DNA of 64,000 nucleotides. It comes from Marsupella aquatica (lineage: Eukaryota > Plantae > Marchantiophyta). The first letter of the stretch is position 1. Each line of letters begins with the position of its first letter. The position numbers and the translations under genes are program-made. Below are positions 22,804-44,295 of the stretch, piece after piece. The stretch lies in NCBI GenBank assembly GCA_973895155.1, contig OZ316895.1, positions 24,933,730 through 24,997,729 of the forward strand. The letters are read 5' to 3'. A model generated the notes under the pieces. It was not told the origin of the DNA. It worked only from the letters and a program-made list of their open reading frames with translations, and made no database searches.

Positions 22804-24101
22804 ATGGCAGATCATTCGAACGACCAGATGGCAGGAAGAGCAAAACTGCAAGCCAAGGACCATTATGTGTTGGGGAACGATACCCGTGTTCCAACTGACG
22901 TTCCTCCTGCTGCAGCAAAACATCCGTCATTGAGCCAGCGATTTGAGAATTCTCCCCTTGACCAGACCGTCGATATGCCTCTCGCAGACGAACAACCAGG
23001 GTGTGGATATTTGGGATCCTTGAAATTGCCATATACATGTCTTATGCGAAAGGTAAGTTCCTACTACCGGTTGCACACTGATAAATTTCATCTCTGTACT
23101 ATGCTAGCTTGTTTTTGTAGTAGCATAGTTTCTCAAGATCTCTCATCTTTTTGGCAATTACCACATCTTGGAACCTCTTCCTCGCACATTAATCTTTTTT
23201 GGCTTGCATGCTGCATTGAAAGCACTCGCTCCGAACTTCTCGGTGAGGACTACTACAGGCTTTTTTAAAAGTTTCAAATGAATGTCATGGACCCCTCTAC
23301 CCAGTCCTCACATAAGTCCTTGTAATTAATCCCGATTAATACTTGGGAGCTTGTGATACTGTCCGCAGTATTGCTGTTGGGAAGCTAAATAACATTCCTT
23401 TGAAGCTTATACGAACGAAATGAATCTGAACGTAGACATCCTCAATGGGGTCAATGCAATAAGTGAGTGAAGACCACATCCCTTGAGGAGAACAATGCCA
23501 ACGGCCAATCTCACCAGCTAACCAGGAGAAATCCTTGTATTGAAGCAGGTTGGAGCAGAAATCATTGCTACTTTCATCCTGGTGTTCACTGATTGTGGAT
23601 CTGCGGTAGTGGATGCGAAGCTCGATCAATGGAGCCGTGACGCATGTGGGCATGTCTTTATCTTTTGGGATTGTTGTCATGAACATGATATATGCAGTGG
23701 GTCACATTTCAGGTGCACACTTGAATCCTTCGGTCACCGTTGCCTTTGCAACTGTGCGGCATTTTCCCTGGAAAGATGTGAGTGCTTTTGCCAGAATGCT
23801 TGCCTAGATAAGCAATCTTTCCATCAAGCATATTCTTTAGTGGAAGTTGGGTACGGGGTCGTAGAGGATCGAGATCAAGTCAAATCAACAACAGATGATG
23901 GATTGCACTAAACCCAGGGGTCAATTGCAATGCTGTACACCACAGGTGCCATTCTGCATTGGCGGTCAAATAGCGGTTGGAATCTGTGCAGGGTATTGTC
24001 TCAGGCTATCTTCAGGGATCATGGGCATCTCGGGGCCATTCTACCCGCTGGTAAAGACAGGCAATCCTTCATTCTGGAGATCATCACCGACTTCATCCTT
24101 A
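22804..24101 (+). pseudogene. NIP-type aquaporin, first three exons only, frameshifted and truncated
   Basis: Exon 1 22804-23052 (..LMRK|GTAAGT). Exon 2 23549-23777 (VGAEIIATFILVF..IYAVGHISGAHLNPSVTVAFATVRHFPWKD|GTGAG) with a frameshift near 23620. Exon 3 from 23946 (VPFCIGGQ..QSFILEIITDFIL). No second NPA box. Confidence 0.9.
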
Positions 24102-26411
24102 AGCCTGCTTTGTCTCAGCCGCAGTGCCCAGAGCAAGGGTCTATGATCTAGAGTCTCAAACTACGTACCCTTTGTTTCTGTTTCATTTGAACATGTAGGC
24201 TATCCAAAAAGGAGACTTTTGCGTTCAAGATCAACTAATCTAGGAATATATATATTGCGCTTCAGTTGCTGTGTCAGGAGAGCAAATTCAATTGTAATCT
24301 CCTTGAAACAGACATTCACAACAGTACCAAAATAAATGATGACCCTAAACTTGTGACTTGTCAGGTTTTGACGGCATGAATGGTTTCTTCAGCAGAATAC
24401 CAGATCTGTAGAGCAATTGGGGTTGCCACATTCACCTCAATACATAAACTTTCAATCGTCTTCGTGAAACAACCGTCAAAGGTGAATCAAACCATTGATG
24501 ATCACGCATTGAGAGAGAACAAAACCAAACCTCAGAATAAAATATATGATAGTCAAAATTGACTCTGTTTTTGTCAAAGAATTAAGCGAGAGACCATTTG
24601 CAACGCTCTCTTTGTGCTTGTCTAATGCAAATAAGCTCGTAACAATTGAAGCATATGATAACCGTCTAAATCCTCTATTAACTAATAACATTACTCTACT
24701 TTGCCCCCACGGAACCAAGCGATTTTCCAGCTCACATTGGACCAGGCTCAAAATACTCTTGAGGACTCTGTGTTGTATCTTGCTTCACCTATAATTCACC
24801 AAAGAGTGAAACAATTTTGAGAGCATTAAGAGACGACAGCCCCCGGCCCCTGTCCGACAGTCCAACCTCTCGGGGCTATTTTCATCTGGTTTACAATCTG
24901 TGCTGACCAAATCAGGTACATTCACAGTAAACTTCTTTTCTTCAGACTTTGCAGAGCGTATTCACCATCAAAGCTCGGTTCGAGTTCAATGCCATAGTGG
25001 TTCCACACATCATTGATTTTTGGGGGGTCTTGTGTCGGTCCAGATATCGAATGAGATTATAGTGAAGGGCCCAATGGGCCTGCTCACTAGGGAGAGTTGT
25101 CTAGAGAATGGAACAAATGCAGCGAGGGAGCCAACCAGAGCTCCGTAGACATCGACGAGGAACCGTGGATGTCTCTGCCAAAATTTACTACCACTCTGCC
25201 CACGCTACAGTCGTGGAGACGGCAAGACCCTTGAGGTGAGCATTCACTTGTTTTTCACAAGAAGAGATTGACACTTGGCTTCTGGTTGGTAGTTATGGAG
25301 CCTGTTATCAAATTGAAGAGTTAACCCTGATCAAATGAAATTGGTGCAATCGAAATGATATGACGGACTTTTGGTTTGTGATGTTCCTGCGGCTTATGCC
25401 AAATGTGCGCCCCGTTCAGGAGATCAACACACAGCACATCTACTACCCGGGAGGCATGGATGACACTAACAAACAGTGACCCTAAGGAGAGCTCTTGTGC
25501 TGCAAAACATGTAGCATCAAATATGGATTGACAGTAGTCGACCGGTAATAAAGAAGCAGTAATCATAGTACAGAGTATGTCTCCTTTTTCTCTAAACATC
25601 TGGGTTGATCGTCTCGATGCTTCTTCAACTGAGAACGGCCATGGATGGAGAGCAGTAAAGCACAGGATAGGGCAGCGCAGAGTTGATGCTTATTTTGTTC
25701 CTAAAAACAACGTTGATTTACAACCATGACGTTGGACATTGTCTTTGATTTGCAATTCTGACAATTTCTAATGTGTTTTCTATGGTCATAGCCCATTCAT
25801 AGCCTGCTGCATCACAGGCTTTTAATTGAGAAGGAGAGTTTTAATGTCCCTGCTTGGACTGAGGATGGTCTAATTATGAGCATCAGACACCTGAAATACA
25901 AACACATCCCGAAACTTGCCCTACTTCTCCTTGGTTTAAATCTCCCTAAACCCCTTCAAGCCCTCCACCAAAGGTCTTCAAACCCTCCACCCAAGGTCAT
26001 GGAAAGTTTGTAGCATTAACTAGCCAATTAACCTATTTGGACTGTAGAGTTGGCATTTGGGCTGCATATATAGTTGGTGCCTGAGTAGGCTGACCCAATA
26101 AAGGCCTCTGGCTACGCAAATTATCTACATAAGGTGGGATAATTTTGATTTATTTGGGTGTGTTAGTTTTGCCTTATAGATTTTACCTACTCTACCCTAG
26201 GCCTATTAACTTCTAGAGCTATAAGAGTTGTAAATTATTTTCTAAAGTAAGTCAATATACATAAAGATTTTGTCAAACATAAGTATTTATATTACAATTA
26301 CAATCCTAAACTAAATTGGTCCAAATATTAAATACATATTTAATAAATTTCATAATTGTTTCTAAAAAGATACATTAAAGTTTGTTTCATGATACCTGAA
26401 ACATATCTAAT

Positions 26412-27853
26412 TTACTCTATTCTATTTAATAATTGTCCTAAGCCACTATTCATAACTAAAGCTGCAATATATGCAGGATTTTCTGTTGGTTTTCTAAAAG
26501 CCATACCATGGAGATGTTTGCCTTTGAATGCAAATAAATCACCATTATGCAAAGGTAATATAAATCCATGTTTGGCAAATACAAAATCAACTGGTGAAAT
26601 ATGTTCATCAGGGTGACTAGTATATGCTAGTGTCCACTCTGTGCTATCATTGTCCACATGAAAACGTGAACAATAATCTCTAGTAATGAATAGTTGATAA
26701 GCAGGAGGTCCCTTCTTCATGTGCTTATCAAAAAATGGTATCTCAACACCTTCCTTAATATATTGGGAAGTTTCTAAGTAAGGGTTACAACATCTAAGAA
26801 AAGTATGTAATAACGTAGGATAATATCTAAACCACATAGACATTAAAATTTCTACCACAGCCCCATGTGCAAATCGATCAATAAATCTACCAAAATCTTT
26901 TAAAGGTTTTGAAGCTTTTACTAACTTATTACTATGAGTGTAGAAAGATGTAACATTTTTTCCAGGTGTCCATGTATGGTGAAATGGACCGAACCCCACC
27001 ATTTCACTCATATAGGATGCTCTAGTTTTAGATCTTTTTGAACTTGGATGAGCACAAAAAAGATCTTTAAGATAAGTTCGCATCAATATAGTAAAAGATT
27101 TATGAACATCTTTAGGGCGAATATGGATACCCACTAGCTCACTTGAGATTTTATCATAGATCTCCGTAACCTGTTTTGTTTTTTGGATTTCAACGTAAGA
27201 AATTGGAAGCTCCCTATATATAGGTGCCTCTTCAATTTCAATTTCTTTCCCTTTGTTTTTCTTCTAGAAAGTATTTGTAATGTTTTTTCTAATTCTAAGC
27301 GATAAAAACATTCACCTTCATCATCAACTCTTCCCCAAAATCCTTGCACTAATTCCATTGGATTCACATTTCCCCACCAAAATTGGGAAATAATTTTTTC
27401 AAACACCATTTCTTTTTTCTCTAGCATATTTTTTTCTCTTTTTACACACTCTTCAATATAGGTAGATGACCTAAGAAAATGGATGTATTTTCTTATACTA
27501 TAGGGTACTGAATCTAAAGAATAATGATGATCAAGAATATCACAGATATTCTCCCATGCGCAAGAAGTAAAGGTTTTTGGTGGTCCAATTTCTTTAAATC
27601 TATAGTAAGCATTATATATCATTGCTTTCGATACAGTATGTTTAATATTCAATACATTTTGTACAAATGCTTGAAAAATATTATCTTCTTGAAGAAGAAA
27701 TAACATGGCAAACTTTTGTGAACGTGGATGCAATATCATGATCGCTGAAAAAATTTGAATGAAAACGTCCATTGCAAATTTCATTTTCTCATACTCATAT
27801 TTGCCATCTTCCTTCATTTGTTTGTTCACTTTCCAAAACTTTCGTTTTGCCAT
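26412..27853 (-). pseudogene. TET/JBP-like Fe(II) dioxygenase, copy A (~480 aa), split by a 1-bp frameshift in the homopolymer at 27179-27184
   Basis: Motifs MVGFGP, YQLFITRDYCSRFHVDND (HxD) and FVFAKHGFILPLHNGDLFAFKGKHLHG (distal His). Adding one A joins the two ORFs (SKKTKQVTEIYDKISSELVGIH), colinear with copy B. ATG preceded by the acceptor TTTTCAG. Confidence 0.72.
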
Positions 27854-27894
27854 CTGAAAAATTCCAAAAACATACTTTAATTTATACAGATATT

Positions 27895-28060
27895 TATTTC
27901 AAAATACATATCTCCAGTCAAACTATCTGGAACTATTAAATAACAATAACCAGAAAAGTATGCCAGATACATATTTCAAAATACATATCTCCGGCCAAAC
28001 TATCTGGAACTATTAAATAACAATAATCAGAAAAGCATGCCAGATATATATTTCAAAATA
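27895..28060. repeat. Tandem duplication of ~77 bp in the 5' intron of dioxygenase A
   Basis: TATTTCAAAATACATATCTCC..CAAACTATCTGGAACTATTAAATAACAATAA.CAGAAAAG occurs twice, plus a partial third unit. Confidence 0.85.
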
Positions 28061-29085
28061 AAGTCAATTGTTTAGTTTTATAATACATATGTTAGGCAAA
28101 TTCATAAGATAATAAGTAGAAAAATATACTCAATATTTGTTTTAAAATACTTATATTTTCTTTGCTTTATTTTATTTTTCCATGTCCTTCATGAATTATA
28201 CTTAAAACAAATAAATGATAGTAGGAACTCACCTTAGAGAAAATAAACGAAATTCAAGTATGATTTCCCAACTTCTAGGTTAGTATTTGGGGCTCCACGT
28301 AGCAACTTGAGCTGATTGCAAACAAACATCAAATTAATGCCAAAATGAGCTTGTACTTAACTAACAAGTTTCACTTGCTTGCAGTAAGTCCTTGAAGAAC
28401 AAAAGCCCTTAAGAATATACTCTGGCTCCCTTCTGACTGTACACATTTAACATAGGAAACTGGAACCTATTGTTGCCAAAGTGTTAGCATTTAGACTTCC
28501 AACCTAGCAAAGTACAAATGACATGCAAGACAAATGTTTACCTAAAAGCAAATAACTACTTTGTAGATTGTAACAGGGTATCCAAAAGAGACTAAAGTAA
28601 ACTCTGTGAGGTTAGGAACGTGAAAGAAACAATCATTGTATCACTAATTCTATATGAGCTGCACCCTACCAAAAATCAATCTAAGGACTGAATCAATGGG
28701 TGTGAACTTCCAATTAAAAGACATTTCAAAAATACCAACTAAGAAGCATACCATGTAAAGGTTGTGCTCAAAATCAACTAGCTTGTTGATGGGTGGTAGC
28801 AAGTGTTGTGGCAAAGTTGGTGTGCAACCCCGCTTGTTGAGAAGGAGAAGTAAAGCTCCAGAATGCCATATAACTCAACAATTGAATCAAGCGCCACAAT
28901 TTACGGGTACGTACTACTACGACGAGACTCATGCAAAGTGCCTGAAGTGTTGGGAGCTAGAAGATCAATGAAGGACCTTCTACTTATGCTGCGGCCCCAC
29001 TGAGTTGAGCTGAGCTCACCAGGGTCCTTTGCGTTGGAACAGATTGCAAAGTCCCTGAAGTGTGGGGAGAAGATTTGATTTATAA

Positions 29086-29409
<324 letters not shown>

Positions 29410-30910
29410 TGAGATTGTCTAGAGAGCTGCCAAGATTTCACGCTTATCTACATTGTTTTCATTGTGGTGAAGTGGGTTTGGACAAGTTTGGACAATTATT
29501 GCAAACTCCCAGAAGCATCTAATCAACTACAGTACTTCATCCACAGCACTTTCTCAGTTTCTCGTGCAGGTGCTCGTTGGTTGAATACTACTACAAAAGG
29601 CTGCCCGAGAAAGGCTGTTACGGAAGAAGATTAGAAGTAGACTGGGATTGAAGCACCACGATTTCAATGCAAGTCAATTTACAAGGGGAAAATCAAGAAA
29701 TTGCTATTGCAAATGACCTCAGTTCAATCAGCATGTCGGGCTTAAACATCGTCAATTCCACAGACAGACCGAAGACACGGAAGAAGGAAGACAAGAGCGT
29801 CACAGACTGCCAAAGACCACATAGATGACACACAGACCTCTCAGTTTGTCGTTTGATTACACTCCAATTCCTGTACATTGACCTAGAGGCAATGAAATTT
29901 CCAGCACCAGACATATACCCACCAAAGATTCTGCTGCAGCATTCCGCGAGCAAAATACTGTTCGTTTTACACAATTCCCTCAAGGAAGAAATCGAAAGAC
30001 TGGCCGGGGAAGATCAGTATCACTTGCGTCGGACTTAGTCCAACAAACAAAGAACTGGGAGCTCGACTGGTAGGCATACTCGCACAAGAAAGCCTAAAAT
30101 CTAATGCAGCCCAAAACGAGTATGCGATCTTTGAAAGGATCTGGATGCAGCTATTGCAACTGGAGAGAATAAATTGCTGTTGAATAAAATTACAAAGTCC
30201 AGGGAAGTAGGGGAATTCGATAGAAAGCTCAACCAGGTAAGAGTCAGACAGAGCAAGACCACAATCGAGAAACAGAAACACGACCGTAGGGCATGAGTGA
30301 CTCAAGGACAGGATATCTACAAATTGTCCCGTGTCTCTCCCTTTCTCTTTTGTTATTCCACCAACGAACCCAGCAACGCACGCTTGGTCCTCATTTACAG
30401 GGAAATCCTCCACAGGATTAGGAAAAGGGACAAAAAGGCAGCAGACGAAGCCGCAATTCAAATGATGCATGATGTGCTTGCCACAAGTAAACGTCATCTT
30501 CGTCTTCAACCAAACCAAGATTGCACCCCGAGAAACAAGCATTGTTTGTCAAAGCAAGATTTAGGGGATCGAGAGAGCACAGACGGATTACCGTTTATCA
30601 ATTCAAAAGCTTCAGGTAGAAATGACCCCCCTATATATTTCCCGGTCTTTAGCTGAGCAAGAGTGAGGGAAGATAGCAGTGTCATTTTTATCAATGCACA
30701 AGGTTCACGGAGAAATTGAATTACCTCTCTCAGTTGACGACGGCGTGGCTGGCTGGCTTGCTGGCCCGCTGATGAACGAGCTAGAAGTGCCTGTGAGTTC
30801 CAAAGGAACGTTGTCTACAACTCCCACTATCAACTGGTACGAGTATCTTAAAATTCTGCAAATGTCGGGAGCAACAGAAATATATGCCTGCCAACATACT
30901 ACAACGACGA

Positions 30911-31109
30911 CGAGCACCTCTTGCTGATGGTACAAACTCTATCGATCATAGGCTACAGAAGCACATAGTAGGCGAGCACCTCCGCGAGCACCTCTTGCTG
31001 ATGGTACAAACTCTATCGATCATAAGCTACAGAAGCACATAGTAGGCGAGCACCTCTCGCCGATGGTACAAACTCTATCGATCATATTAAGCTACCGAAG
31101 CACATAGTA
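30911..31109. repeat. Three tandem copies of a ~62-73 bp unit
   Basis: CGAGCACCTCT..GATGGTACAAACTCTATCGATCATA..CTAC.GAAGCACATAGTA occurs three times. Confidence 0.9.
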
Positions 31110-31444
31110 TTGTACCGCTATTATGCCACCCAAGTCTGATTCCAAGTGAGATACTAATGAAGCCTGTACAATTGATCCCCGCTAACTAGTAGTATATATA
31201 TGATTAATCTTGTGCTACACATGCAGAAATTGTAGTGACTTCGTGCTACCTAAACCTGATCTGAGAAAGAAGGTCATGCTTGCCTCGTGGAGTTTTGTTA
31301 GTTTAATTAAGATTATGCTAGTGAGTATCAAGTGCCTTGTCCTAACCAATCTATGTCCCCGGTTATCCCCAGCACAACACCGCTAATTAAAGTAGCCAGA
31401 AAGACAAACCGCCCCCCAAAATAACAAGGTAATGTCCCTGCTGG

Positions 31445-31695
31445 GAGCATATACCTAACAAAGGCTAGCGCTGATTAAGGGTTGCTGTTTTTGTCCCCTC
31501 TCAAGTTTGTTTTGGCTGGTTCTATTCTAGGCTTGAGCATATACGTAACAGAGGTTGCTGTTTTTGTCTCTCTCAAGTTTGTTTTGGCTGGTTCTATTCT
31601 AGGCTTGAGCATATACCCTAACAGAGGTTAGCGCTGATTAAGGGTTGCTGTTTTTGTCCCCTCTCAAGTTTGTTTTGGCTGGTTCTATTCTAGGC
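31445..31695. repeat. Three tandem copies of a ~72-90 bp unit
   Basis: GAGCATATAC..GGTTGCTGTTTTTGTC..CTCAAGTTTGTTTT.GGCTGGTTCTATTCTAGGC occurs three times. Confidence 0.9.
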
Positions 31696-33232
31696 CTTGA
31701 GAGCTGGCAGAATACCTGTGGGACTGGGAGCCGGAGCAGCGATGGCTGCAGTTGCTGCCTTCATTGATGCCGGTGGTCAAATGACTCAAGTACCGACAAG
31801 AAGAGAAATATCTAACACACCCAAGAGAGGCGGAGACCCGGGCGGTCCGGGCGGAGAAGTACAACATCCTAGCCGCAGCTGACAAAAGTGAAATCTAGTC
31901 CTTCAGAAGACTTATTAGCTCTCAGTAATGTTCATTGCAGTTGCCCGAGTTACATGCACAGCTGTGTCAATTGATGTTGTTACTCATTTATTTCCAGAGC
32001 TGTATTTGAATTTTCAGCTCATTCTGACGATGCTTGAACCACGAGAATTCCTTGAAGTTCAATAATAGAGCTTTAGTACTCTGTTTGATCTAGTTCAAAG
32101 CAAATGCTCTCTCCACAAGCAATGTCTCAGTGGATGCACATACTGATAAGGACTAGTCAAGCGAGAGCAAGAAGATAGTTCCTTAGACGGACCAAGAATG
32201 GTCTCAGTGCGCTGAAATGCAGATAGGGGTTAGTCAACCGAGAACGAAAGGATAGTTGCTTAGACGAACCAAGATGTACTTCTGCCGGATTGGTACGGCC
32301 CGTGTACCTTGCATTACAATAATGATGAAATTGTGGATCTATGAATCAGTTGTTGGTGTACAAACAAAAGAACCAAAAATAAAGATTGTCGTCAATTGAG
32401 TGGCATTATTTGTCTTTATATGTTTGTAGTCTCTAATCATTTTAGCGAGCACTGTACTGACGTGGGGTCAATATACTGAAGGCGGCCTCTATAGTAGAGT
32501 GATCAATCAACAAGACGCAGTTTAGCAATTGCAGCTCATACGCATTTTGGCAATTGCAGCTCATACATCCCAATTTCTACTTTTGAAGCTCCAAGGTCGA
32601 TCTTAAGTGCCCAGCACATTGAAGCCAACTAAATCTCAAGTCCGCGGTTTCAAAAAACAATTGTCAGCCAATGTGGCCCACCGAATGAAGCTGCCGCGAA
32701 TTTGATTACATCCCCCCCTTCCCTTTCTACTGCCTTCTATTTAAAGAAGCAAATCTGGCCGCTGCTCTAGCACAACGCTGCTTGTGTTTACATTTCCTTT
32801 GCCGATTCCCGATTTTCAGGGTCCTTCTCCCCGGCCTCCTGTGTCCGAATCTCCACTCTTTAACCCATTGTGCATGCACGGAGCTTCTCCTAGAAATATC
32901 ATCTTCTTGTTCTGTCGTTTACCTTCATTGGATTATCTTAGTCCAAAACAACATAACAACCCGAAAGGGAATCCCAGGCTTCCCAAGCATAGCAGCAGAA
33001 GGCTGGAGAGGAAAGATGATGAGCATACTGATAACATAATGACAGGCTCTGTGCAGCCACCTTGTCCCACCCCCTTAGCCTCAAAAATAATATGTATAGA
33101 ATTGCATTCCACCATTACACATGCGTCTTACAGGCACCCTAGCTAGGCGCAATGCACACCTTTGACCCACCTTCATAGGGCCAACATAAATCCTATATAC
33201 TAACAATATTTCTCTCTCTTACAGCTGACAAG

Positions 33233-33470
33233 CTGACCTGCTTTACGGACTCTCCTGATGTGTGAATTTTTCTTTCGTTCGGGAAGGGTGGGTGGCAGGG
33301 GGAGGTTGAGAGGCAATCAAAGGCCAAAACTTTTGCTAAGCTTTTTCTCTTTCTTACAACTGACCTGCTTTACGGACTCTCCTGATGTGTGAATTTTTTT
33401 TCCTTTCAGGAAGGGGTGGGTGAGAGGGGGAGGTTGAGCTGAGGAGGCAAGAAAAGGCCAAAACTTTTGC
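33233..33470. repeat. Tandem duplication of ~127 bp
   Basis: CTGACCTGCTTTACGGACTCTCCTGATGTGTGAATTTT...GGCCAAAACTTTTGC at 33233 and 33360. Confidence 0.85.
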
Positions 33471-33989
33471 TTCAGTGCCAAAGGCCGAGAGTCAGGGGAG
33501 AAAGGCCCAGATCAATCCATATGGGGAAACCACGGTACCTAGACGCCAAAGAAACAACATATAACAATAGGATGTAGGATCGGGCATCCCGACCAAGCTA
33601 AGCAGACCCAAAGTCTTGGGGGGATTGAACCGAAGAGTGTGCTGACCAAGTTGCAAGATCATGCACCTTGTGGAGAGTGAATTAAACCTTGATGATCCAT
33701 TGCCTAGAAGTCCCGCTTTTGAGAGAGTTAGATTGTTCAAAAGTAATTAGATTTGTCGTGCCTCTTATTGTGCGCCAGTGGAGCTGAATGCTTCAAAGTG
33801 TGGACCTCGGACGCTCACCGAAGCGGCTACATTGAAGTGCAGATTCAGCACTCGTAGTACGTCTAGCCACAGAGATTTGACTGCTGTAACTGAGTGCATT
33901 CTATGCTCAAGCTGAGCGATCCGGGCTGAAACCCGAAGTGCCCGCTTTTGACTTCATTGATATCCTGTAAATTGACTTCAAATACGTAC

Positions 33990-34632
33990 CTCGTACAGTA
34001 TTTGAAGATGGGGCCATGCCGGTTCTAAGGTTGGATCCTCCTCTTTGGGATCAAAGTTATCAACTCCGGTATTTTCATGAGAGGAGGGGGGTAGCGTACG
34101 AAACAGGCTTGTTACATGCATTTTGGTGATATCTTCGAACACAGCCTCCGTGAACTTCCCTGTTCCCGATGTTGCATCTTCCATCAGCTCCACTAAGGTT
34201 TGCTTCTTAATCTCTTTGTCATTGACATTCTTTGTCGGGTCAGTGAAGTCAAAAGTGTAACAGCAAAGATGGAGCTGTTAATGAACAAGTTCTGCCTGTC
34301 AGAATTTGGAAGGTCTTTGAAAGCAGGCAGAGGATAGAAAAAGGGACCTCAACCATTGTGAGTCAAGTTTGGTAACAACTTCTCCTTTCCTGGTCCAAAT
34401 CTTGGGGTACCGATGCCGTTGATCAAAGCGTTATTCCTGCTACTGGGGCCTACAGCAGCCCTAGCTCCCGCAGCAGATTAACTAAATATGCAGCAGCCGG
34501 GGCTGGGGCCAGAGCTGCAGGTCCAACCCCTCCAGTTGTTGAGGCGCCTACAGATCCTGGTTCATTGGGGTCATTCGGCCCATTACTCCCTTTGTTGCAA
34601 ATCGGCAGGCGCTTCGATATTTTGTTAATCAT
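33990..34632 (-). pseudogene. PP2A B' (B56) regulatory subunit, first exon only, with frameshifts and stops
   Basis: LPAFKDLPNSDRQNLFI / LHLCCYTFDFTDPTKNVNDKEIKKQTLVEL...LFRTLPP...FDPKEEDPTLEPAWPHLQILYE, followed by the donor GTACGT at 33989. No downstream exons seen. Confidence 0.92.
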
Positions 34633-37266
34633 ACCTCAGCGCCTACCCTTGCCCCATCGCCTCTATCTTAGAGCAAGATGAGCACCCGCATACGACTAAT
34701 GTCTACCCAACACTCCCCCTTTCTATTTGGCCGCGCCAGCAGCCAGCCATGCATTTGCAGCAAGGTGCAAATTGGCATGACCAACATGACACAATAGTGT
34801 GAAGTATTTCGAGATCAAAATTCTTCTCGAATCTCCAATGTGTAAATGCGCACTCTGTACGGGGCGAAATACTTCTCCTTCAATGTCTGTCTAGGTTGTT
34901 TCGAGCTGCTGCAGTTGTACTCTTCCCTATAAGCTGTGCTCTTGTCATTGGAAATGGAATGTGATTTCGTGAATGCCTTCTGCATATGAGGGCTAGGGAC
35001 ATCTACGATATTTTCTGTAGATGGCAATTTAGGAAAACATAAGAAATGATGGTGGATATGTGCTCCTGTGTCGTAATTGTTTTTGTTTAGCTACAAAATA
35101 ATGTTCTGGACCTAATTCCGACTTTCTATCCAGTTGACTTGGTTTAGAAGATGCTATTGGCTTGGTGGTGCATAAAGATCAACGCAATAAACTATCTTCT
35201 GCTACAGTTTAGTTCCTGGCCATATCATGATCGTTTATTAAGATTAATGGAGTCCCTTACCATGTGAGAAATCAGTCGGTGCTTTCATCTCCACAAGATT
35301 TAGAGGTCTGTGTTTCTGAGGTGTTGTCAACACTATACTGCCATAGCAGCCCACTTATTATCCAAGGTTTCAGATTTCAAGCTGCCTGATTTTGGGGATT
35401 ACTCCTCATTGTGAATAAGAGCCTCGACGTTTCAGATTAGGTCGGTCGTGGTCTGCAGAATGCGGTGAAAACTACTTCTCTCCTCGTCTATAACGTTTGT
35501 AATCTAAGTTGAATCATTATTACTGGAACTCGGTCACTAGCCAATTTCAGAACAACCTTTCGTACGTGGGCGACTTCTTGCAGTATTATTGCAGAGTCTC
35601 AATCTGCTCTTCATTGAAATTAAGATGTGGGTACGATTCTTGCCTCAGCTCAAAACAAGGCAAATCAAACAAAACTTCTTGTCTGGAGACTCCAGACAGT
35701 ACGATTATGTAAGTGACAGCTCAAAACAAGGCAAATAATTACAGAGGCACTCATGAGATCGATAGGCATGGGGCCGGGTCCCATCTGGTGCCGCGAACGC
35801 TTCCCAAAAAAGGTTATTTTCCTAAATCATGGATCTGAACCTATTGGTGTAAGTATGGTTCGCGCTTGTCTTGCTGGTAGACGAGCTAGACTGCAGCGGC
35901 CGATGAGGACGCAAAATTCCTTCATTTATGCCATCACAAATTGGCAAGCTGGTGTAGGGCTCTGAATCAATTGAGTAGCTAGACAAAGTGCCGTCAACCT
36001 GATCAAAACTGGGGTCTCCAGTAAAATTACAAGGTGGGATTTGGAGTATGCCTAAGGTGCCGTGTTGTATTAATCCGAATGGCTACTAACTCCAGCCGTA
36101 AACTTATGTCTATTGATATGGACCTACTCTAAATGATCTGTACAAAGCTTTAGTCAAAATGCCCCTCATGTCCTTTAGTTCAAGGACGTTCTTAAGATAT
36201 TCATAGGACTATCTCTTTTCCGCATACACTTAACATAGAGTTTCGGATATCATCACAAGTCTACCTCAGTCACTGAGCTAGGACAAAATGTCAACAGAAG
36301 TGGTAGAGGCAAGACGTGTAAAATCCGTAAACATGCACCTTCAGTGAGGCAGACTTAGTTCAATTTTTCCTTCCGATCTGCTATGAAAGCTGGTTGGCAA
36401 CCTGTCGCTTTAAGAGGACCAAGGCACTTTAGATCTTGATTTCACAAATTCTGATACAATTGACGCTGGTTTCTGATCATGGGGCACCGGCGAATGAAGG
36501 TGCAATGGTCCAGTAAAACAGACTGACCAACGACTCGATTTCTCCATTGGTGATAGCTTGAGAAGGAAACCCGCAGATAGTACTGCCAAATGTTACTAAT
36601 TGACACAGAGGTCAGAATCGAGTTACAAATCTCAAAGTCTGATTTGTATCGCTCCTTGCTTTCCTGCCCAGCTGATCGTCCGTCAACAGAACGAGTACTG
36701 TAGTAGTAGCGATCTCTCAACAACACAACCCACCAGGCTTGGGAGAAGGTTACAGCTACTGTGAAGGAATAGCTCCCAAAACATGGTAAACACGTCACTC
36801 GTGATGTCGTGCAATCCAACTTTATAGCGGACAGCTAATGTGTCAATTGACTAAATTGAGCTTTTGTTTTAACGTCTTTTAGCAAAAAGGGAGTCATTCA
36901 GCGGGCGTTGGCTTTTGCTTTTTAAACCACGGCGAAAGACCAAAAAGAGTCATAAGCTCGGATGGGATGTTGAAAGAATCATGCATTCGTAGAGGATATC
37001 CATGTAAACTTTTAAACTCCCATGTCATTCCAAAATGCACTTTGTGTGAAAATAAAGAATTCTTTACTCTAAATCTTTGTCATCCTAGTCAAAATGTATA
37101 TTTTCATAAATCCCTGTAATCTTGGGAATTCTCGGACCATGTGAATTCATATAACACCGCTGTGTTGTATAGATTCATAAGACAAATGGTCAGTGGAACT
37201 TTAGGGTTCATAAAAGTTTAGAGACATAAAAGTGTGCTTTTGGTTCTCTCTGGCAAACTACAACTA

Positions 37267-37935
37267 TAATAGAAACAAGTAAGAAAGTGAAAATAGTAGG
37301 AGGAAATGTAGAATGTGAATTTGGTTTTTCTTTTCTACTTTTATATGTAATTCTTGTATGATTGAGTCCGGGTCAAACAGCCCCCTGCCTTGCAACATGA
37401 GTGCCGGAATGCCCTCATCTCAATCATTAAAATGTAAGTGTCAAGATATATTAACTTTTTTGAGCTGCCCCCCTCCTTCTTTAGAAATAATATGATACCA
37501 TAATAGAAACAAGCAGGAGAGGGAAAACAGTAGGAGGAAATGTAGGATGTGAATTTGGTTTTTTTTCTTTCTACTTTTATATATAATTTTTGTATGATTG
37601 ACTCCGGGTCAAACAGCCCCCTGCCTTGCAACATGAGTGCCGGAATGCCCTTATCTCAATTGTTAAATGCAAGTGTCAAAATGTGCCAACCTTTTCCAAC
37701 CACCACCGCCCCCAGAAATATTGTGATACCCTAAGACGAAACAAGTACATGGGAAGGTGAAAATAATAGGAGGCAATAAAGGATGTGAATTTAATTCTTC
37801 CTTTAGAACTACTTTTATATGTAATTCTTATCATAATTGAATCCAGGTGAAACAGCCCCCTGCCTTGCAACATGAGTGCTGGAATGCCCTCATGTCAATC
37901 ATAAAATGCAAGTGTTAAGATGTACTAACCTTGTC
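37267..37935. repeat. Three diverged tandem copies of a ~235-bp unit
   Basis: Core AAACAGCCCCCTGCCTTGCAACATGAGTGC.GGAATGCCCT near 37375, 37611 and 37850. Confidence 0.9.
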
Positions 37936-38821
37936 AAGCCTTCCAGACCCGTTAGAAACAATGGCCAATTCTGCAATTCACTCTCCTTGTAATGGACCTA
38001 CAAGCGGGCCTACAAGAATCAGACAGGGTATTCAAAAAAATCAGTTTCACATGTGCTTATTTCAATGGTCTGCATGGGTTGTGTCATGGCAAACCAAAAT
38101 GGCTTAGAAGATTAGTTTGGACAACATTCAATAATTTGATGACTGGAGGTGTTCACGCAAATCAAGTGTAACTATGCCCTTGATGAGTTTGGATGCCCAC
38201 CTATATAGAATCTCTACAGTTGTATCTTCAGCCCATGGGAAGCAAGTAACAAGCCCAATAAGGGTGATTTACTAAACAAGGTGAAGTTGCCTGTATGTTT
38301 CTTCTACAAAGTCATACAATGAATGCATACCACTAACCCCACAAGAATAAGACCATTTTCCGGACATCCACACCCACCCTTGTCCTTTGGGGTTTGCAAC
38401 TTGTGGTTGGTGCCTCATCATCAAAGTGTTTGTTACTCTCAAGGGTACGTGTGCTGATCATGTCAATTCCACCTTTGAGTTGATTTGTTTGAGTTCTTCT
38501 ATCTTGCAAAACCTCCCCATTTCAATATATCACCCCCATAACAAGTAACATGCCTTACCTTTCACACCTCAACATGCCCAATATTGCAAAGTCATGATGA
38601 CAACATTCCATTTTTCAACGAGATTATGCCAAACCCTTACTCTTCTTGAAAGAATCGCTAAAATGACGTCAGAATCTGAATTTCAATACCAAATATAATG
38701 ATGACCAGGCTAAATCCAAAATGACCATGGTGTCATCTCCACCCTACGAGCACTCACCACTTTGAGTAGCCCCTCCAAGCGCTCTCAGCTTGCCCCGGGA
38801 GAGCACATCTACACAATAATT

Positions 38822-40198
38822 TTAATGTAATTTTTGCATCAGTCTGCTGAGGTTTTTATTCACGGTAATAGCTCCAACATATGCAGGATTCGATGTTTTC
38901 ATTCTAAAGCCTGTACCATGAACAACATCGCTCCGAAATGCAAATAGATTTCCATCTCTAATTGGCAATCGAATTCCATACTCTGGAATTACAAAATCGA
39001 TTGCTGAAAGGAAATGGTCAGGATGACTAGCATACGCTAAGGTGAAGTCAGTTGCATCATCATCAGCATGTGTTTGCACACAATAATCCTCACTTATATA
39101 TAATTGGTAAGTACTAGGTCTAACATTCTCCCCTATCTGCTCTTCACTTCCATGATATTTGTCACCATCAGATGATAGTAAGTACGGATGAGAGTATTCC
39201 AAAAAACACTCTATCATCTCTGGGCACCACCACATATAAAGCCCCAATATAATATCCATAAGTTCAATATGTGAATATTTATCGATCCACTTCTCAAAAT
39301 CTTTGACATCAAGGCAATCATCGAAAATGGTATTCATCTTCTTCTGGTGTGTGTAATAAGTCAAACGGCCACCCATGTAACTGCTATTCCAAGGACCATA
39401 TCCTGTCATGAAGCTGTCAAAAGCTTTTTTCCCCTCGCCTCTTTGAAATGGAGAATGAGCAACAAACAATGCACTCAAAAGTTTTCGAATGAATTGTAAT
39501 GTTGTCACTCCCAATATTTGTTGGTGCATAAGCATTGCTACAAGCCAAGGCTTTTTCCCTGACTTGTCGTAAAAGTAAACAATATTTTCAGATTTCTCTA
39601 TCACTAGAAAATTTGATGGATAACGCTCAAATGTGAATGTAAGATTACTATGATTGGTTTTAGTCATGTCTTCATTCCAATTTCCCATTATCACTCCAGT
39701 CAATTTTTTCAGTTGTGATTTTGATATTTGTTGCACTTCTACTTGTGTTGAAGAGAATGTATTGTCAACTTTACAAGAAGCTACCCTCTCTACTTGTAAG
39801 GTACGGAGTTGGGATAGGTTAAGGATGTGAAATTTTCCCATGAATTTTTTCAATAGTGGAGGCAATTTTTGTCTCTGTTGATGATGATGAAAGATTTTCT
39901 CGGTTTGTTGAAGTGTTTGAAGAGGGAGAATTGGTGAAATTGCACTTCTGCAGTTGTTATACCCATTCAAAAATTTAGCTCTTGAAAAATTGGACACATT
40001 TATTTGTAAAATGTGTGTAACAAAATATACAAAAATATTTTCATTTTTTAAAATCCAATATAAAATAAATTGTTGTTTAGATTCACATAATTTGCTTAGA
40101 TAATCCCATATTGAACAAAATGTTATGATAGAAAATTCGGCGCCATATTCATGAAATTTATTTTCATTTTTTCTCCTCTCCCTTCGTTTATGGAGCAT
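38822..40198 (-). CDS. TET/JBP-like Fe(II) dioxygenase, copy B (458 aa, intact)
   Basis: Uninterrupted AT-rich ORF from the ATG at 40198 (after acceptor TTTGCAG). Motifs FMTGYGPW, YQLYISEDYCVQTHADDD (HxD) and FVIPEYGIRLPIRDGNLFAFRSDVVHGT (distal His). Clearly paralogous to copy A. Confidence 0.78.
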   Translation of the reverse strand: MLHKRRERRKNENKFHEYGAEFSIITFCSIWDYLSKLCESKQQFILYWILKNENIFVYFVTHILQINVSNFSRAKFLNGYNNCRSAISPILPLQTLQQTEKIFHHHQQRQKLPPLLKKFMGKFHILNLSQLRTLQVERVASCKVDNTFSSTQVEVQQISKSQLKKLTGVIMGNWNEDMTKTNHSNLTFTFERYPSNFLVIEKSENIVYFYDKSGKKPWLVAMLMHQQILGVTTLQFIRKLLSALFVAHSPFQRGEGKKAFDSFMTGYGPWNSSYMGGRLTYYTHQKKMNTIFDDCLDVKDFEKWIDKYSHIELMDIILGLYMWWCPEMIECFLEYSHPYLLSSDGDKYHGSEEQIGENVRPSTYQLYISEDYCVQTHADDDATDFTLAYASHPDHFLSAIDFVIPEYGIRLPIRDGNLFAFRSDVVHGTGFRMKTSNPAYVGAITVNKNLSRLMQKLH

Positions 40199-40909
40199 CT
40201 GCAAAATTGTCAAATTGCATTTTTGTGTCAGTACTAATCAAATTGTTTTCCAAACTTTTTAAATAAAACTGTTACACTATTAAATATAGTAAATATTTAT
40301 TACCAATCAGAATTTTGATTAAAAAATTAATATAAACTTGTAATAATATAATATTTTTTAGTTACTTAAATCCATAATGTCTATTATATTAATAATTTTT
40401 TTAAAAATGATTGAAAAAAATAGATATTATGTTACTTACTTGAGTGGGTTGTGGAAATGTCATTTTTTGGATTTTTGAAGAATAAAACTTGTAGAAAAAT
40501 ACACGGTCAATGTGTCTGCACAGATCTCATTGAAATATGAATTGCAAAGATTAGATAGAAACTCCAACTCCCCGGCTCACCTCAACCTTGCTCTAGTAGA
40601 AGCACCAATTGAGGTTTTTCAATGTAACGTTGCACCACACATATAAATTGGACCTATTGCACCCACCAGAATGTAATTTCAAAATGTGGGGAGAAGTCCA
40701 TGCCTCTTGAAGTCCAGGTCATCAAACTCAATGACGAGATATAATTATTTCTCACTATAGATGCACAACATCCTGCAATGTAGAAGAAGGACAAAACCTC
40801 AGATCAATGATCAATAAAAATTGAACTATAGCCCTCAAGACTAGTCATTTTTTCTTGAAGCCTTAATTTACACACAATGAGAACCTAGTTTCCCCTGAAT
40901 ATGGCAAGC

Positions 40910-41545
40910 ATTTCTCAGCCTTATCTCGGGACAGATTGAAGGCAGCTTCCGACCACGAAAGTCAACAAAACTGCCTATGAGCCATCCGTACCTATAAAGA
41001 TCCGCCATATATAGACCCTCTTCACAGCTTTATAGAATCACTCATTGTCGGAACACACAAGTCAATCTGCACCGATCTGCCTACTACCGCAGCCACAATA
41101 GTGTGCTAGAATTCACCGTGAAGTACTGGATTGGCTCCACTCTAATTCGTGCCTTACTCGAGACATGAGAAACGGAAAAATTGACGCGTCTAGTTTCGTC
41201 TCACCTTGTTTAAGTAAGCAATGTTGACAACCGGGTCGAGAAGGTACCGGAGGAATGCATCCAATGTGAAGGAGTGCTTCGCTTTCATCAATATCGTATT
41301 CTCGTGAGCCATCTGCTCATTGATGATCTTCTCGGCATCACCCAATGTAACCTCGGTTTCACCTTGCTCTGCGTTCAGAAACTCTTTTAACTTCGCCGGG
41401 ACAATGACATCATTCTCTGCATACTTACGCATGCGATCAAATTGCCTCTTTGCTAATTGAACCATTGTCCATCAATCTCTCCTCCTATACAAGCTCGGAG
41501 GATCCATCTCTATCCTGCCCACAGGACTCTAGGGGGAGGCACAAC
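40910..41545 (+). repeat. Segment duplicated at 63399-63995
   Basis: CAGCCTTATCT.GGGACAGATTGAAGGCAGCTTCCGACCACG ... GACTCTAGGGGGAGGCACAACA is colinear in both places, with several indels. Confidence 0.93.
41205..41450 (-). pseudogene. Phosphoinositide phospholipase C, EF-hand-like exon fragment
   Basis: KYAENDVIVPAKLKEFLNAEQGETEVTLGDAEKIINEQ...FTLDAFLRYLLDPVVN ends at the donor AAG|GTGAGA. It matches the plant PI-PLC N-terminal EF-hand pattern; X/Y domains are absent. Confidence 0.8.
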
Positions 41546-43073
41546 AGAATGGAGGGAAGATATTACATTCGAACTAGAGAAGGGAGAACTCACCACAAGG
41601 ATCTGTTGGCAGCAGCAGTCGATACAAAGCAGCAGTCGATACAAAGTCGATCTAACCAGACGAGCGACAAGTACACATGTTAGAGACTCCTCGATGAAGC
41701 TCAAGACGACAAGACTGGTAACAAGCCCAATTGAAAAACTCAAGCTGCGATAGTCCAACGAGAAGCAAAACGATGAAGAAATGAAGGCGGGACCCCACGA
41801 GCCAGAGAATGGTGATGCCAGGCGGGGCTGTTCAGTGGTGATTGAGCTCCCGCGTCGGCATGCATCCCTTCTATCTCTCAAGTGCTGCCGGTGGTTTGTT
41901 GCCCCCCAATGATCTGCGAAGGCGATGAGACTCTGAGCATCGGTTGCTTGAGTCTACAGGAATGAATGGTTTGCTTAAGAGGTCACGTGTAAAGTCAATA
42001 CTGTGCTGAGCTTTGGAAAATTTGGCGGAGTAGTTAGGGATCGCGATGCTGTTGGGTCACTGAGACTTGTCGGAGTAATGTTGTAGCAAGCCAATGTGAT
42101 TAGAACTTGATACCGATGATAGACGGATGCTATGGTACAGAACCTTAGCCGATTTGAGCAGGGGAAAGACATGATACTTCGGTAGGAGGTGCGCCACTAA
42201 AGTATACAGGACAGTACAACAACTCGCAGTGACCCCATGCCTACCTACTATCAAACAAGCCCGAGGTAGTCAGCAGCTTTGGATGCTGAGCCAAAGGGAG
42301 CAACAGCAGGCAAAGACTGACATAATACTAAAGCTGATTTGATCCACCTGGCTGCTCAGTCGGTGCACATTCATTCGAGCTGCAATTCGAAAGTGCGGGG
42401 GCAAGGAGGAAAAGGGGCTACAGCTGTACAGTGCCGGATCAAATGGGCAATGGGGACAGTTCGATAAACAGCTGGGACAAGCAGGTGCTACGGGGCCGGA
42501 CCCAGAGGGCAGAGTTCCCATCTGGGACAAAGCATGCTCACATAAGTGCAAGATTTGCATAGCTTGGAATCAAGCCTCAGTATGTAGCCGCTCTGTCAGC
42601 TTTCTTGGGGCCTGATCAAGGTTGGTTCACACTAGGACTGCCACGACGTAAGTTTGCACTCTGGACAGTAGCTCTGGGAACAAGGAGCTGTGCTTGGCTG
42701 GAGCACCAGAGCGATTGTGATGCCATCGGCTATCTCTAGGTGAGAGAAACAATCACGTCCTGTCATAAATGTCCCCCCGGGAAAGAAAGGGCAACTTTCA
42801 GCACTATGGTTCTGTACTAGGACCTGCTACAAATTTACAAAAATAGTTAACCTCCGCTGATCATTATTCCGCTTTTGATGGGCTGATACAAACCACTGTC
42901 GTTGAATTGGCCTCCAAACAGGACCTACAACGTTGTTTTGTCATCACTGCTACATCGCGATCGGCCTTCACTAGATATCCCTTCCAATTTGTTCTAGATG
43001 CTAATTAATCATCGACGCTGAGTTTTGCGAGGCTGAGCTTTGCCAACGATTAGGAGTAGATAATGTACGGCAG

Positions 43074-43233
43074 ATGCTCAAACTTGCTCGGAAGTTTGCA
43101 GCAACTAAATTTGAAGAGGAAACCGAGAAGCTCTTCAGGGAACACTTTGACATCCTGAAGACTAATGTGTTTGATGTTTTGGAAGGACTTCATTATGATT
43201 CGGAAGGCTCACATGATGGTGAAGTCGTTTCAG
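43074..43233 (+). pseudogene. Probable isolated exon of an unidentified host gene
   Basis: Bounded by CAG| and |GT, with a protein-like translation (LKLARKFAATKFEEETEKLFREHFDILKTNVFDVLEGL). Family not recognised. Confidence 0.3.
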
Positions 43234-43417
43234 GTCAAAAATCATTTGTGGATCTTTGTCAACTCACTCATTCACAATCCGTCATTCGACTCTCAAACCA
43301 GAGAGATCTTGACATCTCGTCAGGGCAGCTTCGGGTCAAAATGTGAACTATCGCCAGAGTTCTCGAAGAAAGATGAAGCGCTTCCGATTGCAGCTCAAAA
43401 GGCAGCAGCAGAGACAA

Positions 43418-43455
43418 GGAGAGGAGAGGAGAGGAGAGGAGAGGAGAGGAGAGAG
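43418..43455. repeat. (GAGAG)n microsatellite
   Basis: About 7 GAGAG units read directly. Confidence 0.9.
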
Positions 43456-44071
43456 GCATTCAATCCATTCCAATCGTCGTTGGGTATCAAACGCCTGTTG
43501 CTGCCCAATTGTTTATTCTAAGCTCAGCTTTGCTGGGTCCAACATTATTCGGAGTGACAGATTAGGGTCTATGGCATCACCACTGCAATCACCTTGGTAG
43601 ACATTGACATCCAAGTAGGAGCAGCCTGGTGGAAACGAGGCCGACAGAAAGTGCCTTAGGGCCCCTGTCCATATGTCGGGTAGTGGTAGCTTCACATCAA
43701 AAAGCAATATGTAGGGACTTTGAAGGAAGAAGAATCGCAGCAACTCACTCATTGCTCTGATTCATTTGAGAGATTTCGTTCATTCCTTGAAAGATGCTTG
43801 TTTAATTGGGTCGATACTCACTGAAAAGCACAAGCGTTATGATCAGTCTTCTTCCATTCTAGCACAATTTAGACTTGACCAATTAGCGGTAGGTTAGTTA
43901 TAATAGAAAAGGGCCTTACTGACATCAGATTCCATGTGTGCTCTGTGAAGCTCGTGTCCAGTGGTCATGTGGGCCCGTCTAAGTAGAAACATACAATTTC
44001 TCAGGCTATTATACTATATAACCCTAACCCACTCAGATCGGTGATTTACTAAATGTTTGCAATGTTTGATG

Positions 44072-44295
44072 TGTATCCCCCACCACAAATTCATGGATCT
44101 TGTTATGAACTTCGATCCAGCTACGTCCAGGCTCCTTCCGAACACCTCTCTGTTGCATCATAGTGCGCACAGATGACACCTTCTTCCACTTCCCAGCTGC
44201 AGCATAGATATTGGAGAGCAGCACATATGTATAGGGCTTACCGGGTTCCAACTTGAAAAGCTTGTTAGCGGCCAGTTCACCCAGCTCCACGTTTG
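44072..44295 (-). pseudogene. E/E+ domain fragment of a PLS-class PPR (RNA-editing factor) gene
   Basis: NVELGELAANKLFKLEP..YVLLSNIYAAAGKW..VRTMMQQRGVRKEPGRSWIEVHNKIHEFVVGD. No PPR tract or DYW domain attached. Confidence 0.93.

What the first reader, a model, noticed from the sequence alone, without database searches (positions are those of the whole stretch)
26412..40198. Two divergent TET/JBP-like dioxygenase genes in a land-plant repeat element
Seen: paralogues at 26412-27853 and 38822-40198 (both minus strand) share MxG(F/Y)GP, YQL.I..DYC...HxDxD....TLAY.SHPD, FV....G..LP...G.LFAF.....HG and an N-terminal block (ENIFVYFVTHILQI versus DNIFQAFVQNVLNI). They have many substitutions yet open frames, unlike the decayed cargo around them. 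Established: TET/JBP enzymes oxidise 5mC or T in DNA, and flowering plants demethylate through DME/ROS1 glycosylases rather than TETs. Inference: these are core element genes that may counter silencing or create a modified base.
Basis: partly seen in the sequence, partly recalled or inferred. Interest (0 to 1): 0.85.

Follow-up and report, generated by a model that had tools for sequence, protein, structure and literature searches.

The report
Plant mobile element carrying TET-like enzymes
A repeat-bounded, cargo-filled stretch of a likely seedless-plant genome holds two very different genes whose proteins are predicted to fold like the TET enzymes that edit methylated DNA bases, and they likely help a mobile element resist silencing, although they lack an arginine that such enzymes normally use to hold their co-substrate.

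Summary
Both genes are real paralogues (25% identical over 483 columns, E 5e-54). Gene B is intact (458 aa). Gene A is not open here: it lacks one base near 27255, but contigs of 3 of 3 runs covering the site have that base. The model of B matches TET/JBP structures best (Foldseek top five CMD1; top 15 VIA rows TET2, CMD1, NgTET1, CcTet), with AlkB and prolyl hydroxylases only 1-2 Z units behind. The iron triad and the base-stacking Arg are conserved. Differences to ~85%-identical copies are enriched for synonymous changes (ratio 0.2-0.4). New: the strand-VIII 2-oxoglutarate Arg is missing in a 21-row clade that includes both genes. They lie in a 40-kb segment with a telomere-linked-helicase-like gene (likely a tyrosine recombinase) and host-gene debris, between 7.4-kb direct repeats that hold a fragment of a third paralogue. 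That they are 'core' genes, are expressed, and counter silencing is untested; CpG decay in the repeats shows incomplete protection. TET-carrying transposons are known in fungi and Chlamydomonas, and this scan found TET-like genes earlier in peat moss and in another element of this genome. Verdict: new variant of a known kind.

The parts
38822..40198 (-). Gene B: intact TET/JBP-like dioxygenase, 458 aa; helical N-terminal part plus double-stranded beta-helix; R253, H377, D379, D381, H427; Ala439 where relatives have the 2-oxoglutarate Arg; R432 a possible substitute
26412..27853 (-). Gene A: paralogue, about 480 aa; one base missing in a short A-run near 27255 in this copy, present in contigs of three runs
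40199..40439 (-). Predicted intron ahead of gene B (GTAAGT donor; TTTTGCAG acceptor directly before the ATG)
   Evidence: sequence; no transcript data
27854..28232 (-). Predicted intron ahead of gene A (GTGAGT donor; TTTTTCAG acceptor directly before the ATG)
   Evidence: sequence; no transcript data
10991..11167 (-). N-terminal fragment (59 codons, one stop) of a third paralogue inside the left repeat; 44% to gene B, 76% to P0006
58600..58776 (-). Same fragment in the right repeat
16648..21609 (+). Telomere-linked-helicase-like gene: C2H2 fingers, OrsD/DUF3505, middle domain with R..RH..H..Y (likely tyrosine recombinase), RecQ helicase; one TAG stop at 20641-20643 inside helicase motif VI
6357..13735 (+). 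Left 7.4-kb direct repeat R1; begins TGTATATATC; holds CCCTAAA pairs near its right end
53998..61342 (+). Right direct repeat R2; 24 substitutions against R1
14478..15900 (+). C-rich minisatellite at the left end of the inner segment
53543..53996 (+). G-rich, inverted version of the same minisatellite, preceded by TTTAGGG x2 (53539-53552)
51766..53542 (+). Stack of four truncated copies of the repeat's left end (starts at 51766, 53175, 53213, 53242)
21700..50500 (.). Host-gene debris around A and B: aquaporin (23610), zinc knuckle (29086), PP2A B56 (33981), phospholipase C (41193), gyrase B (43159), PPR E motif (44036), frameshifted LRR receptor kinase (44713-47445)

Best explanation
Genes A and B are predicted TET/JBP-family iron dioxygenases that ride in a large cargo-carrying DNA element and likely oxidise 5-methylcytosine in DNA, which would weaken host silencing of the element. 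Steps: (1) shown, two divergent paralogues with an HxD..H triad lie inside the repeat-bounded segment; (2) predicted, the protein has the TET/JBP fold with the base-stacking Arg; (3) shown on few sites, relatives are under purifying selection; (4) inferred, the genes are spliced and expressed; (5) inferred from the family, the enzyme flips out a methyl-pyrimidine and oxidises its methyl group, with R432 (five residues after the last iron His) standing in for the lost strand-VIII Arg to hold 2-oxoglutarate; (6) inferred, the oxidised base blocks maintenance methylation or methyl readers, so the helicase/recombinase gene can be transcribed and the element copied. The genes were likely picked up from other TET-bearing transposons and kept because they help.
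For: Profile search: best PDB hit CMD1, E 2.4e-4, 4 hits at E<=10. Model pLDDT 78, pTM 0.81. Foldseek ranks 1-5 CMD1, then TET2 and CcTet in 6 of ranks 7-12. VIA on 48,161 chains: TET2 Z 14.1 (rmsd 4.3, 243 aligned), CMD1 12.6 (4.0, 237), NgTET1 12.6 (4.1, 202); the top 15 of 1000 chains are all TET/JBP proteins. R253 in 23 of 23 rows with a letter, H377 28 of 28, D379 27 of 29, H427 25 of 25, of 39 rows. 24.2 synonymous against 20.8 non-synonymous among 45 listed differences; ratio 0.22, or 0.36 (p 8e-4) with the transition bias of 6 estimated from them. R432 in 16 of 24 rows and in none of the 4 rows that keep the strand-VIII Arg. CWG observed/expected is 0.94-1.54 in 15 of the 17 two-kb bins from 16 to 50 kb, against 0.40-0.42 in the flanking Gypsy. 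Precedent: TET+ transposons in fungi (PMC12730594), CMD1 in a Chlamydomonas transposon (10.1101/2022.06.16.496473), a viral TET linked to low methylation (10.64898/2026.10.09.758095).
Against: No Pfam hit reaches a curated cut-off: B none, A PF20515 E 0.11; 6 of 42 relatives have weak TET-type hits. AlkB and prolyl hydroxylases score Z 11.5-12.2, within 1 of CMD1 and NgTET1. The strand-VIII Arg is essential in CcTet (R385A abolishes activity, PMC11040006) and is absent here; the position of R432 in the pocket could not be inspected. The base-stacking Phe/Tyr of TET2, NgTET1 and CMD1 is Thr or Val here. Between R1 and R2, transitions hit 7 of 244 CG sites and 7 of 2294 CHH sites (odds ratio 9.6, p 1.3e-4), so the repeats likely carried CG methylation. 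The two bins with low CWG inside the segment (0.77, 0.82) are the TET genes themselves. The helicase gene of this copy has a stop. Linkage of A and B with that gene in other copies is untested.
Confidence: 0.5

Rival explanations
1. The Arg-less clade uses another co-substrate (ascorbate, as CMD1 does, or something else) and writes a bulky or new base rather than 5hmC.
For: CMD1 is the best sequence-profile and Foldseek match. CMD1 cannot use 2-oxoglutarate because no basic residue holds its C5 carboxylate (PMC7854593); here that Arg is Ala, Val, Thr or Ser in 20 of 20 ingroup rows that reach the strand, while 4 of 4 outgroup rows keep it (split 100/100). CMD1 T337, F371 and T399 have like residues in B.
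Against: CMD1 W358, essential for ascorbate use, aligns with a small residue (A390; Ala, Val, Cys, Ser, Thr in 26 of 28 rows). The shared T337, F371 and T399 equivalents also occur in the Arg-bearing outgroup, so they are not diagnostic. R432 offers a simpler repair.
Confidence: 0.2
2. The genes are active TET-type passengers of other (DDE) transposons and were swept into this element as ordinary cargo; the selection seen reflects their former carriers.
For: A fragment of a third paralogue lies broken in R1/R2 like other debris. Relatives of A at about 85% stop matching at the stop codon and go on into a different flank. GC3 is 0.22-0.30 in A and B against 0.34-0.39 in the helicase gene. Fungal TET genes move often between transposon lineages (PMC12730594). 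An unchecked note reports a TET-bearing IS3EU-like element in this genome.
Against: A and B are full length with putative promoter-side introns, whereas every identified host-gene piece is a fragment; near-identical contigs of a second organism label span A and B with their flanks, with 3 and 4 differing letters.
Confidence: 0.2
3. The proteins have lost catalysis and work as methyl-DNA binders or shields (an anti-silencing factor in the manner of VANDAL proteins), possibly aimed by the helical N-terminal part at the element's minisatellites.
For: Both the 2-oxoglutarate Arg and the stacking aromatic are missing; a well-predicted N-terminal helical region has no assigned family.
Against: The iron triad is invariant across a clade with only 20-40% identity. 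Rust-fungal PU-type TETs also lack the aromatic (Gln in 13 of 13 rows seen) and have His or Lys for the Arg in 5 of 13 (read by eye).
Confidence: 0.07
4. They are AlkB-like, prolyl-hydroxylase-like or small-molecule dioxygenases with no role on 5mC.
For: OsALKBH1 Z 12.2 (rmsd 3.6, 172 aligned) and a Dictyostelium PHD Z 11.7-12.2 are close to CMD1 and NgTET1.
Against: TET/JBP matches align 195-264 residues against 150-190 for the others, fill the top 15 rows, and are the only oxygenase found by sequence profile. The R-x(10)-M-x-x-F/Y-G segment resembles the PU-type TETs (by eye).
Confidence: 0.03

Closest known systems
PU-type TET/JBP dioxygenases of rust-fungal DNA transposons (Kojima 2025, PMC12730594; Pfam PF20515)
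   Same: Transposon-borne; HxDxD or HxDxxD, then W/F-T/A-hydrophobic strand; R..G.M..G motif ahead of the core; no aromatic six residues after the strand-VIII Arg (13 rows of Table S1 read, of 165). Weak PF20515 hits in A and 5 of 42 relatives.
   Different: Host is a land plant; the carrier gene is a telomere-linked-helicase type, while all carriers in that paper are DDE transposons or Helitrons; the strand-VIII residue is non-polar here, but Arg in 8, His in 4 and Lys in 1 of the 13 PU rows seen; two paralogues in one element.
CMD1 of Chlamydomonas reinhardtii (PDB 7cy4-7cy8; PMC7854593)
   Same: Best solved relative by profile and Foldseek; iron triad, R244 equivalent, T337, F371, T399 equivalents; CMD1 also sits in a DNA transposon.
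   Different: No Trp at W358; acidic residue at H+4 instead of H+5 (D350); no F416 or R418 equivalent (Thr/Val, Asn); no maize-size claim of shared chemistry can be made from this.
Human TET2, Naegleria NgTET1, Coprinopsis CcTet
   Same: Highest VIA Z (TET2 14.0-14.4 in four entries), triad and substrate Arg.
   Different: All three keep the strand-VIII Arg and the stacking Phe/Tyr; these proteins have neither.
Fungal telomere-linked helicase (TLH) regions (bioRxiv 10.1101/2024.02.27.582403)
   Same: C2H2 fingers, conserved middle domain and RecQ motifs in the same order; arrays of full and truncated units with interstitial telomere repeats.
   Different: Here in a plant, with 40 kb of cargo and TET-like genes; that paper does not mention a recombinase (0 occurrences).

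Membership tests
TET/JBP dioxygenases | Double-stranded beta-helix with HxD...H iron triad | tested here: met
   Model and DSSP; H377 28/28, D379 27/29, H427 25/25
TET/JBP dioxygenases | Nearest structures are TET/JBP proteins, over more than the bare barrel | tested here: met
   margin over AlkB/PHD is 1-2 Z for TET2 and a tie for CMD1/NgTET1
TET/JBP dioxygenases | Substrate-stacking Arg ahead of the barrel (TET2 R1261, CMD1 R244) | tested here: met
   R253 in 23 of 23 rows; equivalence inferred from position and motif, not from a residue-level superposition
TET/JBP dioxygenases | Asp/Asn after HxD that reads N4 of cytosine (H+5 in TET2, NgTET1, CMD1) | tested here: inconclusive
   Asp at H+4 in 27 of 28 rows; H+5 only in P0020; H+4 also in 2 Dileera PU rows
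TET/JBP dioxygenases | Pfam PF12851 or PF20515 above the curated cut-off | tested here: not met
   A 12.9 bits against 27; B none; best relative 19.1 bits
Canonical 2-oxoglutarate-using TETs (TET2, NgTET1, CcTet) | Arg at the start of strand VIII binding the co-substrate | tested here: not met
   Ala in A and B; no Arg at that place in 20 of 20 ingroup rows
Canonical 2-oxoglutarate-using TETs (TET2, NgTET1, CcTet) | Phe/Tyr six residues later stacking on the base | tested here: not met
   T445 in B, Val in A; no aromatic in 24 of 24 rows
CMD1-type ascorbate-using enzymes | Trp358 filling the Arg position | tested here: not met
   Aligns with A390 by the HMMER alignment; a one-residue shift would put the conserved Y389 there, which I consider less likely
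TET/JBP dioxygenases | Oxidises 5mC or T in DNA | not testable with these tools
   needs an enzyme assay
TET+ DNA transposons (Kojima 2025) | DDE transposase or Helitron Rep with terminal inverted repeats and target duplication | tested here: not met
   No such gene among 221 frames scanned against Pfam; flanks of R1/R2 show no duplication
TLH-containing regions | C2H2 - TLH domain - RecQ gene | tested here: met
   Pfam OrsD, DEAD, Helicase_C; TIGR00614 E 8.5e-37, below its cut-off
Tyrosine-recombinase elements (Crypton, Starship) | Tyrosine recombinase domain | tested here: inconclusive
   R740, R877-H878, H905, Y914 seen in sequence and kept in the Calypogeia protein; no profile hit; single-sequence model unusable, pLDDT 37
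Tyrosine-recombinase elements (Crypton, Starship) | Defined ends, empty sites, circular intermediate | not testable with these tools
   no genome held

The most novel reading that the evidence does not exclude
Seedless land plants harbour an undescribed clade of transposon-borne TET/JBP enzymes with a rebuilt co-substrate pocket that write a non-canonical base on methylated DNA, and a giant telomere-linked-helicase/tyrosine-recombinase element carries two of them as its own anti-silencing kit.
Probability: 0.15. Interest if true: 0.9.

Novelty: new variant of a known kind. Interest (0 to 1): 0.63.

Why it matters
Land plants are described as removing 5mC with ROS1/DME glycosylases, and TET oxidation as the animal route (PMC11065753, passages). 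An intact, selected TET-like family in plant mobile DNA would add an oxidative route run by transposons, give a candidate source for disputed oxidised bases in plant DNA (my recollection of that debate, no call), and supply ready genes for assay. Loss of the otherwise essential Arg makes the chemistry an open and directly testable question; the last TET homologue with an altered pocket, CMD1, made a new base.

Tried and rejected
No whole genome is held, so copy number, ends and empty sites were not examined. No RNA holder was listed for gene B; this is no evidence on expression. Single-sequence PDB searches with B and P0043 found nothing. Scans for loci of the family found none in metagenome or viral contigs, nor for the helicase/recombinase gene. 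tblastn of B against phages and of the recombinase region against phages and plasmids gave only chance hits; PHROGs and NCBIfam gave nothing for A or B. The single-sequence model of the recombinase region failed and was not searched. The N-terminal 115 residues of B were barely covered by fold searches, so their fold is undetermined. Contig depth is no copy number and is used only as a hint; the gap of X2 over gene A proves nothing (57% of the run read). Rejected: R1/R2 as LTRs of a retroelement (no target duplication, no primer site, no RT in the inner segment); an intron as the cause of the break in A (a one-base difference in three runs explains it). dN/dS between A and B was not computed (31% identity, saturated). 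Six papers by the Aravind/Rao groups were not held.
Full report
OBSERVATION. Gene B (38822-40198, minus) is one frame of 458 aa. Gene A (26412-27853, minus) is split into two overlapping frames. Contigs of X1, X3 and X4 carry one more T behind 27255 at their full depth; X6 does not cover the site. So the family form of A is open and this copy, or its assembly, lacks one base in an A-run. Read through with X, A has 479 aa and is 25% identical to B over 483 columns, E 5e-54. Both start codons follow a splice-acceptor-like sequence, with a canonical donor 240 and 380 bases upstream; splicing is predicted, not shown.

FAMILY. A search of 1.84 billion representatives gave 42 relatives at E<=0.001. 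Of 30 looked up, one names an organism (the chytrid Geranomyces variabilis, P0039); the rest are unnamed or 'hypothetical' proteins from short contigs, so the host range of the family is unknown. Pfam: none for B, PF20515 (Tet-like) at E 0.11 for A; PF20515 in 5 of 42 relatives (best E 0.0014) and Tet_JBP in 1 (E 0.13), none above cut-off. A profile of 39 rows finds CMD1 as best of 4 PDB hits, E 2.4e-4. The AlphaFold model of B (pLDDT 78, pTM 0.81) gives CMD1 at Foldseek ranks 1-5, a bacterial dioxygenase at 6, then TET2 and CcTet. VIA gives TET2 Z 14.1, CMD1 12.6, NgTET1 12.6, OsALKBH1 12.2, CcTet 12.1; in the second look the top 15 rows are TET/JBP proteins, with 195-264 aligned residues against 150-190 for AlkB and prolyl hydroxylases. 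Viral matches include two named JBP1/TET proteins among the top five. I take the TET/JBP assignment as about 90% safe.

ACTIVE SITE. Kept: R253 (23 of 23 rows with a letter), H377, D379, H427, a Ser/Thr at CMD1 T337, Phe at F371, Thr at T399 in 20 of 25 (mapping and PMC7854593 sections 9 and 11 part 1). The acidic residue after HxD is at H+4, not H+5. Lost: the Arg at the start of strand VIII, called strictly conserved for 2-oxoglutarate binding and essential in CcTet (PMC11040006 passages). Four distant relatives keep it; 20 of 20 ingroup rows that reach the strand do not (2 of the 26 rows printed end earlier). The tree of 25 rows separates the 21 ingroup from the 4 outgroup rows at 100/100, midpoint root, 14 of 39 rows left out as too short. 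CMD1's Trp358 is not matched, so ascorbate chemistry has no specific support. Rust-fungal PU-type TETs look most alike by eye: 13 rows of Table S1 of PMC12730594 (part 1 of 20 of the supplement) have Arg in 8, His in 4, Lys in 1, and Gln in place of the stacking aromatic in all 13. The other 152 rows were not read and may hold Arg-less forms.

SELECTION. Runs X2-X6 hold diverged copies, about 85% alike over short stretches. Of the differences the tool listed (40 rows in each call; 507 and 14 more not shown), 45 fall in A or B and come from such copies: 24.2 synonymous, 20.8 non-synonymous, ratio 0.22; with transition bias 6 the ratio is 0.36, p 8e-4. No listed change makes a stop or hits the triad. 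This is a small, pooled sample and says that the family was selected, not in which carrier.

CONTEXT. After a Gypsy fragment (1792-2307 protease) come a 7.38-kb repeat R1 (6357-13735), a 40.3-kb inner segment and R2 (53998-61342), with 24 substitutions between the repeats. The inner segment starts with TATATA, has a C-rich minisatellite at its left and the inverted G-rich form at its right end, telomere-repeat pairs near both ends, and four stacked truncated copies of the repeat's left end. It encodes a C2H2-OrsD-RecQ protein with one TAG stop, 62% identical in the searched region to a Calypogeia fissa protein. Its middle domain has R..RH..H..Y in the order of tyrosine recombinases (motif knowledge recalled); no profile or model confirms this. 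The layout recalls fungal TLH arrays (10.1101/2024.02.27.582403 passages). The rest is host-gene debris, including a PPR E motif and an LRR kinase, which with TTTAGGG points to a land plant, likely seedless. Gene B's region is held at 93-100% of words by 4 runs of 2 organism labels and 2 studies, one possibly the source; long X3 contigs span A and B with flanks at depth 197 and 127 against 69 for a diverged PP2A contig, a hint of several copies. Whether the mobile unit is R-inner-R, a tandem array or a nest of related elements I cannot decide. Both repeats hold a broken 59-codon fragment of a third paralogue.

METHYLATION TRACES. CWG is depleted in the Gypsy (0.40-0.42) but not in 15 of 17 bins from 16 to 50 kb; the two exceptions are the TET genes. 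This fits protection but also recent capture of genic DNA, and rests on one control element. Against full protection: R1/R2 transitions are 9.6-fold enriched at CG (p 1.3e-4), not at CHG.

MECHANISM. Most likely the genes encode DNA methyl-pyrimidine oxidases kept as passengers that lower or mask 5mC on the element (0.5). Rivals: altered co-substrate and new base (0.2), hitch-hiking from other TET+ transposons (0.2), non-catalytic binder (0.07), non-TET oxygenase (0.03).

KNOWN AND NEW. TET-carrying transposons are described in fungi, all DDE or Helitron (PMC12730594: abstract, introduction, passages, section 4.2), in Chlamydomonas (passages) and in a latent giant virus (passages). Listings of seven searches showed no paper on TET/JBP genes in land plants, and two none on a TET in a TLH or recombinase element; I read passages of PMC3212892, PMC3627910, PMC13519894, PMC11065753, PMC4738411 and PMC12344493 without finding one. 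The surveys by Iyer and Aravind were not held; I recall, unverified, that they may list a moss among TET/JBP holders, which would lower the novelty of the host. This scan noted dead TET-like genes in peat moss and a decayed TET-bearing element in this genome (unchecked). What this locus adds is intact, selected genes, two paralogues in one segment, a likely recombinase-type carrier and the Arg-less pocket. Interest 0.63; new variant of a known kind.

Noticed in passing
window 16648-21609: TLH-like gene with a likely tyrosine-recombinase middle domain and a close relative in Calypogeia fissa; this copy has a single TAG stop in helicase motif VI.
   Followed up: partly
window 51766-53998 and 6357: Six copies of the same left end (TGTAYATAT..), three of them directly after GCC, stacked head to tail with variable right ends; looks like repeated insertion of one fixed end.
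   Followed up: partly
window 13290-13303, 13679-13692, 53539-53552: Pairs of plant telomere repeats at or near segment junctions, next to telomere-like C-rich and G-rich minisatellites in inverted orientation.
   Followed up: no
window 40910-41550 and 63399-63999: A phospholipase C fragment occurs twice (89% alike) and has the highest contig depth of the laid stretch; probably carried by another abundant element beyond R2.
   Followed up: no
window 10443-10930 and 58052-58539: 18-bp tandem array (23 copies, core GAGGGTACCCTC-like palindrome) begins about 60 bases after the third-paralogue fragment ends; a candidate binding array.
   Followed up: no
window 40440-40463: An ATG eight codons before the predicted donor would add a short in-frame leader exon to gene B.
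   Followed up: no
window 2000-6356: Flanking Gypsy fragment is strongly CG- and CWG-depleted, unlike the rest of the window.
   Followed up: partly
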